From Octopus sinensis (taxonomy: Eukaryota): a stretch of DNA of 64,000 bases. Numbering within the stretch: the first letter of the stretch is position 1; every line of letters begins with the position of its first letter. The notes under the pieces were generated by a model, which saw only the letters and a program-made list of their open reading frames with translations, had not been told where the DNA came from and did not search any database. Positions 7,954 to 40,490 of this stretch are shown here, one piece after another. The stretch covers positions 12,710,001 to 12,774,000 of the forward strand of contig NC_043024.1 in assembly GCF_006345805.1 (NCBI RefSeq), read 5' to 3'. Both the position numbers and the translations under genes were made by a program.

Positions 7954-8142
7954 ATAGTGAGAATTTACAAAAAAAAAAAAAAGAGAGAAACGAAGACGCG
8001 TGTGTAAACAATGAATACATGTATTAGTTTAACGCTCGGGAAGTGAGAAAGTCTTTTATATTTCGAGCCTACGCTCTTCGACAGAAAGGAACACGAAGAA
8101 ATAAACAGAAAGAGAAAATAAAAGAAAGGTTTAGTGGCTACA
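7954..8142 (-). mobile_element. Short Penelope-type element family D with minimal hammerhead-like motif (8052-8089)
   Basis: Homologous to 17482-17700 and 40199-40490; minus strand CCTTT-CTGTCGA-A-GAGC(GTAG)GCTC-GAAA-TA-TA-AAAGA. Confidence 0.7.
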
Positions 8143-9272
8143 CACACATCTATGTCTTTAGCTATTTAAGTATCTGGATAATTAGATAGATATAAATTCA
8201 TATATTCGTCCCTGCATCTGAACATACATACATACGTCCATATAAACAGAGGCACGGTGTCACATATACACAATGCATGTGCAACCTTACAGATGCAGAA
8301 ATATATACGACAGGCTTCTGAATAGTTTGCTGTAATATATTCTACAAAAAAGAAACGGTTGGGTTTTCAGCAGATTCAGAAGAAGCCATTTGTCCAGTGT
8401 CCGAATTTACCGCCAAGAAGAATAAACTCAAAACTCCTTCGTTCCAAAGAGAATTTCTTAGCTACACGGCAACGAATGCGTTGCTCTTTCTCTTCTCATC
8501 TCTCTCTCTGTTTCTCTGTCACTCTTTCTGTCTTTGTGTCTCTGTCTCTCTCCATGCCTCTCTTCCCCTGCCTCTCCCTCTCTTTCTTTTTATCTGAGCG
8601 TGTGTGAGTATAGGTATGTAGGTGTGCATATATATATATATATTATATATGTGTGTGTGTGTGTGTGTGGTATTTGTGTGTGCCTGTGTTTGTGTGTGTG
8701 CGTGTGTGTTTACAAAAGATACGTGTCCGCCTCTTAGTATACACACACATACCTGCATATATATATGTGTGTGTGTGTGTATCACTATATATATGCACGT
8801 ATATATATATATATATGCATGTATATATATATATGCATGTATATATATGCATGTATATATATATATATATGATGTGTGTGTGTGTGTGTATGAGAAACCG
8901 AACGAAAATACATCAATAAACGAAGCACAGACACAAACAAAATAAAACAGAAAAAGCGAAAAACCTCCAAAAACAGTCAAAACAACATAAACAAGACGTA
9001 AAATAAATCTGAGATTGATATTATCTATTTAAAAGTTGTCTGGGGATAGCGAATGGAGCGGGGGGATGAGGGAGGCGGATCGGTGGGAGTAGAAGCAGAT
9101 GAGTAACCGTCGGATGGGGGGGGGGAAGAAGGATATTAGTGGGAGGGTTGGGTGAGTGAGTGAGTGGGGGAAGAAAATCATTTTATCTGTTTCTCTCTTG
9201 ATTTTTTTTACGAGATACTTGTTAATTATTTTCTTGCTTGTTTATGAATTCTAAAACTAGTGATTATTGTTT

Positions 9273-9339
<67 letters not shown>

Positions 9340-9628
9340 ATGGTGAAGCGGAGCGGGGTGGGGGTCGGTTGTAAGAAAGCACCGGTTGAAGAGATATATA
9401 CTTGGTGGACGATGTGCTGGTGGTGGTGGTGGGGGTCATGGGTGGAATGCGGTGGCTAGAGGTCAATTCGAACTCATCTCCAACTCTCTCACTACCGCTC
9501 CACCACTCACACACTGTGATATTTAATTTGCTGACACCAAACGGAAATTCGGAATGAATAAATGTAGAAATACAGAAGAGAAATATCTAATGAAAAGGAA
9601 AGAAAATAATTATTAATATATATGTGTG

Positions 9629-9659
<31 letters not shown>

Positions 9660-9801
9660 CATACATACACCCATGTATGTGTGTGTGTATATATATATAT
9701 ATACACACACATACACCCATGTATGTGTGTGTGTATATATATATATATATACACACACATACACCCATATATGTATATATATATATATATATATATACCC
9801 A

Positions 9802-9835
<34 letters not shown>

Positions 9836-9839
9836 CCCA

Positions 9840-9870
<31 letters not shown>

Positions 9871-38200: not shown

Positions 38201-38326
38201 ATATATATATATATATATATATACATATATTAATGTATATATATCTATACATACGTATATGCATATGCATTCATGTATATCTATATCTATACATACATAT
38301 ATGCATATACATACATACATATCTGC

Positions 38327-38358
<32 letters not shown>

Positions 38359-39087
38359 GTGTGTGTATGTGTGTGAGTGTGTGTGCGCGCTTATATACAT
38401 ATATATAGATATATGAACTCATTTGTATGCATGTTTATGTGTATATGTGTATATACATATATAATAGATACACACACACACATATATATGTATATATATA
38501 CATTCATTGATATACACTATACATAGACATGCATATATACACACACCTACACACAAATATCTATATTGTGTATATGTGTATTTACCGACACTTTCATGGC
38601 GCAGTGGTATCGTCCTCTCATCATAATGTCCACACAAATGTCCACACAAATATACACGCAGGATATAATATTCACTTTATATTTCTTTTTATCACCACGG
38701 CCACCACCACCACCACCATCACTTCCCCCTCTTCCACCTGAGCGTCTCCCACCCATTCACCCCACCACAGTACATACATTATTGATCTCCAACATTGGCG
38801 CAAGACTATATGCTATATATTATTCACTATCGAAGTCTTGCGTCAATTTGTACGTTTACAATACTGTTGCTAATATTCCATTCCATTTCACTCGACATTT
38901 CGTGTTTTTTTTTTTTCGACAAATCAATTGATATCCTCGTATTCTAACTCCGACGCATGATACGATTCTAAAACGCTTCGACGTACCTAATTTTTTTTTT
39001 CGGATTTTCATATACGTAAACACATACATACATACGTATATATATACACACACACATGTATCTATATACATAGATTAGGTGATATAT

Positions 39088-39232
39088 ATTACAGAGATGT
39101 ACTTGCATAGCAAGTGACCTGATCTGAGATCGTGTGCTGGAACGAAAACAATTGCAGCGTGGAAGGTGTTTATAAACCATTTAAGAAACACACAAAATCC
39201 GTTAGATTCACTTCAACATCTAAATTGAATTT
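39088..39232 (+). mobile_element. Family E repeat, single arm (same family as the palindromic element at 51572-51897)
   Basis: GATCGTGTGCTGGAACGAAAACAATTGCAGCGTGGAAGGTGTTTATAAACCATTTAAGAAACACACAAAA shared with 51614-51710. Confidence 0.85.
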
Positions 39233-39254
39233 TATATCTATATATTCGTGATTT

Positions 39255-39608
39255 GTGGCACTCCGTCGGTTTCCACGACGAAGGTTCCAGTTGATCCGAT
39301 CAACGGAACAGCCTGTTCGAGTACCCTTAACTTAGTTCTCGGGGAGATCCAGCGTGACACGGAGTGTGACAAAACTGGCCCTTTGAAATACAGGTACAAC
39401 AGAAACAGGAAGAAAGACAGAAGAAAGAGTGAGAGAAAGTTGTGGCGAAAGAGTACAGCAGGGTTAGCCGTCACACCCTGCCGGAGCCCCGTGGAGCTTT
39501 AGTTGTTTTCGCTGAATAAACACTCACAACGCCCGGTTTGGGAATCGAAACCGCGATCCTACGACTGCGATTTCGCTGCCCTAACCCCTGGGTCATTGCG
39601 CTTCCACA
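39255..39608 (-). mobile_element. SINE family C with internal deletion
   Basis: Matches the 31104 copy but lacks the GTGAAATTAAC...GACACGT block near 39320. Confidence 0.9.
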
Positions 39609-40198
39609 TATATTTCTGTACATACACATATATGTATATACATATAAATATATAGATTTATATACACACATATGTATATAATATATAATTATGTGTGTGT
39701 TTGCACATGTGTGTGTGTGCATGTGTGTTTGTTATTTTAAACGCAAGCCATTGGCGCAAAATGTAATCTGCAATCTTTTATCTGGAATAGATTTTCAGCC
39801 CTCACTAATAACCTAATTTTATTGGAATATTAGAATGTCAAAAATAGATTCTGTTAGAAATTTATGTGACAAGTTGAGTAAATGTAATGAAGTTTTCACA
39901 TTGGTAAATGCATGAAAGGCATAAGAAACAATAATAAGTGTGGTGGTCTATTTTGGAGACATCTGGATTGGACAACGCTTCTGCAGTGCCAAGTCAACTG
40001 CTTCTAATATGCATATGTATGTGCGTGTGTATATATGTGTATGTGTATATGTGTGTATATGAGAGTAAGACTGTGTCTGGTACATAACTGCGACTTTCAT
40101 GCACACGTCTCCTTCATTTATACAGGTATATATATGTTTGTAGATGTGCGGGTGTAGGTGTATGATAGGAGGATATATATGTGTATATATATATATAT

Positions 40199-40490
40199 AT
40201 ATAACGGGAAAGTTTACGAAAATAAACAAAAGACGAAGGCAGGTGGAGTATAAACAAACAAATGTATTAGTATGGCGCTCAGGAATAGAAATAGAACAAG
40301 TCTTTTACGTTTCGAGCCTACGCTCTTCAACAGAAAGAGACACAGAAAAAAAAACAAGGAGAGAAAAAAAATGCGTGTAGGAGTTAACGATCTATCATGG
40401 TGTTCTGACTTCGGGCAGTGGTCAGACGCAAGAGGGACAGTGGGGGAGATAACAGGGTCAAGTGACTTCCAAAAACGAAGGTGCCCCCAA
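40199..40490 (-). mobile_element. Family D short element with minimal hammerhead-like motif (40301-40338)
   Basis: Minus strand TCTTT-CTGTTGA-A-GAGC(GTAG)GCTC-GAAA-CG-TA-AAAGA; abuts (TA)n. Confidence 0.75.

What the first reader, a model, noticed from the sequence alone, without database searches (positions are those of the whole stretch)
7954..40490. Short element family D carries a minimal hammerhead with a conserved non-canonical CUGU core
Seen in three copies (8052-8089, 17584-17621, 40301-40338; all minus strand): YCTTT-CTGTYGA-A-GAGC(GTAK)GCTC-GAAA-CG-TA-AAAGA. Stems I and II are intact while the stem II loop and N7 vary, and stem III is a 4-nt palindrome (ACGT, or ATAT in the 8052 copy). 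Established: the hammerhead core is CUGANGA/GAAA/UH, and PLE minimal hammerheads with palindromic stem III cleave as dimers. All three copies have U at the normally invariant A6, so this is a family trait rather than copy decay. Inference: an active variant ribozyme, or a hammerhead repurposed as an RT-recognition signal in a non-autonomous, (TA)n-targeting element. Best candidate here for an undescribed system.
Basis: partly seen in the sequence, partly recalled or inferred. Interest (0 to 1): 0.72.

Follow-up and report, generated by a model that had tools for sequence, protein, structure and literature searches.

The report
Penelope hammerhead with fixed U6 core
The three motifs are tail fragments of a very abundant jumping gene of the Penelope (Neptune) type, whose small self-cutting RNA motif carries U at a core position that is normally A; the change likely slows cutting, yet the rest of the motif was kept intact while the element spread, so it is a natural test of what these motifs are for.

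Summary
Observation confirmed. 'Family D' is not a separate non-autonomous element: longer copies run into a Neptune-type Penelope ORF (RT, CxxxxCxxC linker, GIY-YIG), and the motif sits in its pseudo-LTR. U6 is the family state: 16,350 exact U6 matches against 657 with A, C or G; 126 of 127 copies picked without using the motif have U6, none A6. The motif is more conserved than its flanks (0.082 against 0.21 substitutions per site, 52 of 52 copies), and subfamily majorities differ only at N7 and H17, the hammerhead's free positions. Published mutants of this U-turn cut poorly, and U6 is predicted to allow an off-pathway helix in the youngest copies. Insertions do not start at the cut site, but neither do those of a canonical-core sister family, so that test is uninformative. 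Best reading: an attenuated, still-constrained hammerhead; cleavage untested. A sister lineage fixed U4C. The scan noted the same U6 motif before in other genomes (two notes). New variant of a known kind.

The parts
7955..8140 (-). Short pLTR-derived copy 1 (older subfamily, N7=C) of the Neptune-type Penelope element
   Evidence: ends read by eye
8053..8088 (-). Minimal type I hammerhead motif, core CUGUCGA, stem III palindrome decayed to AUAU; predicted cut 3' of 8057
17485..17695 (-). Short pLTR-derived copy 2 (youngest subfamily); 5' end in the hotspot about 105-110 nt upstream of the predicted cut; 3' end runs into (TA)n
17585..17620 (-). Minimal hammerhead motif, core CUGUUGA, extra A at 9a, stem II GAGC/GCUC, ACGU palindrome; predicted cut 3' of 17589
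40202..40552 (-). Longer copy 3, reaching about 250 nt upstream of the predicted cut into the element's 3' UTR, flanked by (TA)n on both sides
40302..40337 (-). Minimal hammerhead motif, core CUGUUGA; predicted cut 3' of 40306

Best explanation
The motif is the minimal type I hammerhead in the pseudo-LTR of a Neptune-type Penelope retrotransposon, and its family-fixed U6 likely makes it a slow or conditional cutter whose fold is still under selection. Shown: the link to the RT plus GIY-YIG ORF, a 5' and a 3' pLTR in near-full-length copies, a fixed 3' end in (TA)n, a 5'-end hotspot about 110 nt upstream of the predicted cut, and lineage-level change confined to N7 and H17. Inferred: transcription starts at that hotspot; the element's own enzyme nicks (TA)n and primes reverse transcription about 100 nt downstream of the hammerhead; copying back to the RNA's 5' end gives the 200-nt short copies. 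Because most copies span the cut site, the template is uncut (or rejoined) RNA, so weak cleavage costs the element little. U6 would weaken the CUGA U-turn and, in the youngest subfamily, is predicted to pair with the ACGU palindrome that dimer formation needs; any cutting would need dimer formation or help from protein.
For: ORF link: (L125 47-55% identical to P0005 over residues 78-770); the P0005 RT segment reads nearly the same as Neptune1_Ap in the supplement of PMC8557442 (compared by eye). U6 fixed; on a tree from flanks only, non-U states need 23 changes for 24 tips (shuffled mean 23.5), while N7 needs 19 (73.5) and H17 13 (43.1). No other letter reaches 10% at position 6 in four runs labelled organisms A-D, where N7 does vary. 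Constraint: 0.082 against 0.206 and 0.211 substitutions per site, lower in 52 of 52 copies; youngest against oldest majority 0 of 36 against 20 of 89 (Fisher p 0.0008); H17 is A 70, U 55, C 1, G 1 of 127; one compensatory C-G/G-C change in stem I between lineages. Weak cutting: U-turn mutants show low activity (PMC9901934); natural A6C cuts slowly in Mg2+ (PMC3088659, PMC7151607); predicted G5-C15.2 pairing 0.92 in 31 U6/U7 contexts against 0.03 or less in 9 natural A6/C6 contexts. A Poseidon hammerhead is protein-assisted and not needed for insertion in vitro, and its RT starts internally (PMC11167929). 3' end: 71 of 86 run into (TA)3 or more.
Against: No cleavage data for A6U were found or produced. 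The absence of 5' ends at the cut site (1 of 86; 3 of 69) is matched by the canonical-core sister subfamily (1 of 70), so it says nothing about U6. The off-pathway helix is weak in older subfamilies (0.10 with G7, 0.27 with C7, 0.55 with A7) and absent in the C4 sister lineage (0.00). The stem II loop is as invariant as the core, which catalysis alone does not require, so another constraint may explain part of the conservation. Covariation rests on one event. The start site is inferred from DNA ends only. No intact ORF was seen among the 12 long stretches read.
Confidence: 0.58

Rival explanations
1. The motif is catalytically dead and is kept as an RNA handle for the element's protein or as part of the internal promoter.
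For: Loop II is invariant too; the motif lies about 80-115 nt downstream of the likely start site, and D. virilis Penelope has an internal promoter (PMC2377424 abstract); hammerhead mutants did not affect insertion in vitro; a sister lineage fixed U4C and one of its subfamilies also has a U-U mismatch in stem I.
Against: The only lineage-level changes fall at N7 and H17, and H17 moves between A and U without fixing G, as the hammerhead rule demands; a promoter or binding site has no reason to follow that rule.
Confidence: 0.22
2. U6 is a tolerated or compensated change and the ribozyme cuts at a normal PLE rate in vivo, as a dimer or with protein or Mn2+.
For: All catalytic residues are retained; natural A6C recovers about 0.3 per min in 1 mM Mn2+ (PMC7151607); a PLE hammerhead needed protein to cut; the one ORF-bearing copy L125 begins 2 nt past the predicted cut.
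Against: No second change rescued U-turn mutants in pairwise scanning of another hammerhead; predicted off-pathway helix in the youngest copies; one start near the cut site in 86 is what background truncation gives.
Confidence: 0.13
3. The short copies are an independent non-autonomous family (SINE-like or retrozyme) that amplifies from its own short RNA.
For: Tight 5' hotspot (26 of 86 at -113 to -97); some head-to-tail short arrays exist (L027, L137, L159); animal retrozymes derive from PLE pLTRs (bioRxiv 2026.07.22.740005).
Against: 5' ends grade continuously from inside the motif up into the ORF; short copies carry the same diagnostic letters as ORF-bearing copies in the young and in older subfamilies; most copies are single, not tandem.
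Confidence: 0.07

Closest known systems
Minimal hammerheads (min-HHR) in pLTRs of metazoan Penelope-like elements (Cervera and De la Pena 2014, PMC4209133; read main text parts 1-2 of 4, supplement file 2 part 2 of 3)
   Same: Type I order, 4-bp stem I, extra base between A9 and G10.1, G10.1-C11.1 pair, palindromic A-C-G-U in place of stem III, U-rich 5' flank, position in the pLTR, mostly solo copies.
   Different: Position 6 is U. Every row in the alignment part read has A6 (their descriptor required it); the core variant they report is U3-A8.
Neptune clade of Penelope-like elements (Craig et al. 2021, PMC8557442; passages and supplement term searches)
   Same: Single ORF with RT, CX2-5CxxC linker and C-terminal GIY-YIG with CCHH; pLTRs; partial tandems; (TA)n targets.
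   Different: Non-canonical hammerhead core; I found no published description of this family, and clade placement rests on similarity, not a tree.
Natural A6C hammerhead of phage Bcep176 (PMC3088659 section 8; PMC7151607 part 1 of 4)
   Same: Natural change at position 6, with the rest of the core kept.
   Different: C rather than U, a single bacterial phage example, and tested (slow in Mg2+, better in Mn2+); here more than 16,000 copies and untested.
Poseidon PAc of Anolis (Frangieh et al. 2024, PMC11167929; parts 1-2 of 4)
   Same: AT-rich targets, fixed RT start downstream of the hammerhead, uncut RNA as template.
   Different: Other clade; its hammerhead overlaps the ORF start, whereas here it lies about 650 nt upstream of the likely start codon.
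Non-LTR retrozymes of animals (bioRxiv 10.64898/2026.07.22.740005; part 1 of 5)
   Same: Short, non-coding, pLTR-related units with a type I hammerhead.
   Different: Retrozymes are defined as tandem arrays with complete hammerheads; these copies are mostly dispersed monomers continuous with an ORF-bearing element.

Membership tests
Penelope-like element, Neptune clade | ORF with RT followed by C-terminal GIY-YIG | tested here: met
   RVT_1 E 6.7e-08 (above cut-off) and GIY-YIG E 0.005 (below cut-off) on fragments; tblastn of P0005 along L125, L130, L123; all copies seen are broken
Penelope-like element, Neptune clade | CX2-5CxxC linker and CCHH motif | tested here: met
   C-X4-C-X2-C before GIY-YIG, and the two Cys and two His, read
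Penelope-like element, Neptune clade | pLTR or partial-tandem structure | tested here: met
   L123 has the same motif-bearing repeat before and after the ORF
Penelope-like element, Neptune clade | RT groups with Neptune in a tree | tested here: inconclusive
   No tree with named references; P0005, 47-66% identical in segments, reads nearly the same as Neptune1_Ap
PLE minimal hammerhead | Stems I and II, 9a base, G10.1-C11.1, palindromic stem III, UH site | tested here: met
PLE minimal hammerhead | Core CUGANGA with A6 | tested here: not met
   U6 in 126 of 127; 16,350 against 657
PLE minimal hammerhead | Self-cleavage as a dimer | not testable with these tools
   needs a cleavage assay
Non-LTR retrozyme | Tandem arrays of non-coding units, each with a complete hammerhead | tested here: not met
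   mostly monomers, core non-canonical, continuous with an ORF; a few short arrays exist
Non-LTR retrozyme | Circular RNA intermediate | not testable with these tools
   only assembled contigs were offered

The most novel reading that the evidence does not exclude
Selection on these retrotransposons tunes the ribozyme down: two related Neptune lineages in one genome each fixed a different hit to the CUGA U-turn (U6 in more than 16,000 copies, C4 in more than 8,000), and the U6 lineage changed N7 about five times in a way predicted to adjust an intramolecular off-helix over the dimerisation palindrome, giving a protein- or metal-gated hammerhead switch, with U6 as a natural active core variant.
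Probability: 0.2. Interest if true: 0.7.

Novelty: new variant of a known kind. Interest (0 to 1): 0.42.

Why it matters
What hammerheads do in Penelope elements is open. One genome holds canonical, U6 and C4 versions of the same small motif in related, highly successful lineages, which gives a ready natural series for a cleavage assay. [quoted passage not shown]

Tried and rejected
Rfam scan of the window: no hammerhead family among the 150 best of 404 matches shown, all low-complexity miRNA hits; generic repeat finder swamped by microsatellites. 5'-end pile-up at the cut site as a test of activity: rejected because the canonical-core control behaves the same; four of 90 copies were dropped as identical over 200 nt, one of 70, and values near -150 to -175 are partly artefacts of (TA)n flanks. 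Idea that U4C and A6U both stabilise the same off-helix: rejected for C4 (pairing 0.00 in 11 contexts). Idea of an A6 subfamily inside family D: rejected (which used 144 of 220 copies, young ones thinned to 30). Expression: no RNA holder on record was listed and only contigs could be laid, so nothing on starts, ends or levels. Lunse et al. (RNA Biol 14:1499) is not held; seen only as cited in PMC6765202, and it may list position-6 variants. Literature searches for a U6 hammerhead or an octopus hammerhead listed none; supplement file 1 of PMC4209133 could not be searched and bioRxiv supplements are closed.

Full report
Observation. The window is G000:C28:12710001-12774000 of a 2.72-Gb animal genome. 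It is octopus-like by inference: the one named homolog of the element's protein is an Octopus bimaculoides entry at 69% identity over 35% of the query.

U6 is the family state. The exact pattern with U6 has 16,350 matches and the same pattern with A, C or G has 657; reversed controls give 0. Among copies chosen by a downstream word and not by the motif (160 loci, 135 with a recognisable motif, 127 with a homologous 5' side), position 6 is U in 126, C in 1 and A in 0. On a tree built from flanks only (144 of 220 copies, young ones thinned), non-U states are scattered singletons (23 changes, shuffled mean 23.5), whereas N7 (19 against 73.5) and H17 (13 against 43.1) follow lineages. Contigs of four runs labelled organisms A-D show no other letter at 10% or more at position 6, while N7 varies.

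What the element is. Short copies share a fixed 3' end; 71 of 86 run into three or more TA units and 3 continue into unique sequence. Longer copies extend through a CT-rich tract into an ORF. L123 carries the motif-bearing repeat both before and after the ORF, and L125 covers most of the ORF. Fragments match RVT_1 above its cut-off and GIY-YIG below it, carry a C-X4-C-X2-C linker before the C-terminal nuclease, and align with P0005 at 47-55% over residues 78-770 in L125. P0005 reads nearly the same as Neptune1_Ap in the supplement of PMC8557442 (by eye). So family D is the pseudo-LTR of a Neptune-type Penelope element. All ORFs seen are broken; 12 long stretches were read. Penelope-like elements are listed among recently active elements of Octopus vulgaris, in a paper with no mention of ribozymes (PMC13282606, passages).

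Constraint on the motif. In 52 older copies chosen by a downstream word, divergence from a young copy is 0.082 per site in the motif, 0.206 downstream and 0.211 upstream, lower in the motif in 52 of 52 (the motif was located with a pattern allowing six substitutions and no gaps). Majority sequences of seven rough subfamilies (208 of 239 copies assigned, some picked through the motif; one group was mixed) differ inside the motif only at N7 and H17; youngest against oldest is 0 of 36 against 20 of 89 (p 0.0008), though many pairs are not significant alone. H17 alternates between A and U and G is not fixed. These are the two free positions of the hammerhead consensus (PMC4209133 supplement; PMC7151607). 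Against a purely catalytic reading, loop II is equally invariant within the family. A related lineage has a different loop II and a G-C for C-G in stem I, one compensatory event.

Sister lineage. The related family with a 3-nt loop has 4,874 matches with canonical CUGANGA and 8,023 with CCGANGA; both states mark subfamilies, one C4 subfamily has a U-U mismatch in stem I, and one C4 copy lies downstream of a PLE ORF fragment (L404). U4C is known from a viroid, where it lowers activity but permits infectivity (PMC3088659, passage).

Does it cut? Not tested. Pairwise mutagenesis of another hammerhead found low activity for all U-turn mutants except the C3-G8 swap (PMC9901934, passage). Natural A6C cuts at 0.004-0.05 per min in 1-3 mM Mg2+ and about 0.3 per min in Mn2+. 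Folding predicts that U6 allows U4-G16.2, G5-C15.2 and U6-A15.1 pairs that cover the ACGU palindrome: G5-C15.2 probability 0.92 with U7 (31 contexts), 0.55 with A7 (10), 0.27 with C7 (6), 0.10 with G7 (5), at most 0.03 in 9 natural A6 or C6 contexts, and 0.00 in both sister groups. Genomic 5' ends: 81 of 86 young copies cross the predicted cut, 1 lies within 3 nt of it and 26 fall at -113 to -97; 3 of 69 older copies lie within 3 nt, one being an internal deletion. The canonical-core control gives 66 of 70 crossing, 1 within 3 nt and 41 at -120 to -95. The lack of pile-up therefore cannot be charged to U6; it shows that uncut or rejoined RNA is the template whatever the core, as found in vitro for Poseidon (PMC11167929).

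Mechanism. The shared hotspot about 110 nt upstream, at initiator-like TCAG or TTCA words (motif likeness recalled, no call), is most simply the transcription start; D. virilis Penelope has an internal promoter (PMC2377424, abstract and section 16). With reverse transcription primed at (TA)n about 100 nt downstream of the motif, a start-to-priming-site copy gives the 200-nt element without any separate non-autonomous family. This step is inferred. The hammerhead lies between start and priming site, so cutting would remove the 5' part of such copies; weak cutting is cheap or favoured, while the N7/H17 pattern suggests that the fold, and likely some cutting, still matters. I put this at 0.58, a dead structural handle at 0.22, a normally active variant at 0.13 and an independent short family at 0.07.

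Comparison and novelty. It works like a PLE minimal hammerhead and belongs to a Neptune-type element, but fails the A6 criterion. Six searches of the held library listed no natural U6 hammerhead; Lunse et al., the largest survey of PLE variants, could not be read, and unseen supplements may bear on this. Two earlier notes of this scan describe the same U6 motif in other genomes and reached a similar reading; I had stated mine before seeing them. Verdict: new variant of a known kind, interest 0.42.

Noticed in passing
L397-L416, L377-L396, L417-L486: Sister hammerhead family with a 3-nt loop II: canonical core in 4,874 matches and U4C in 8,023; one C4 subfamily has a GUC site and a U-U mismatch in stem I.
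   Followed up: partly
window 17691-17676 (minus) and homologous sites in L046, L059: An ATG a few bases after the 5' hotspot opens a four-codon frame (MLNR or MIDR, then stop) in several subfamilies; the sister family has ATG-TGA at the matching place.
   Followed up: no
L125:6290-6206: A near-full-length copy begins 2 nt past the predicted cut, behind an inverted duplication of flanking DNA.
   Followed up: partly
L137, L140, L159, L027: Head-to-tail arrays of 440-525-nt units containing the U6 motif, some with part of the 5' UTR: possible retrozyme-like derivatives.
   Followed up: no
N7 across subfamilies: About five lineage-level changes at this one site against roughly 0.2 per site in the flanks; unexplained.
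   Followed up: partly
L055:1501 and L332: Two copies of an older-looking subfamily have C at H17 (GUC site).
   Followed up: no
L095 upstream flank; L120 upstream flank: Other hammerhead-like motifs: one with a canonical core and a long stem II, one with C4 and a UAU loop.
   Followed up: no
L092:424-1269 and L124:6494-7300: ORF fragments of other RT families beside the Neptune copies, resembling the Hydra and Naiad-type sequences in the supplement of PMC8557442 (by eye).
   Followed up: no
window 16846-17111 with 31118-31383; 5432-5646, 6949-7134 with 19558-19772: Other dispersed repeat families in inverted orientation.
   Followed up: no
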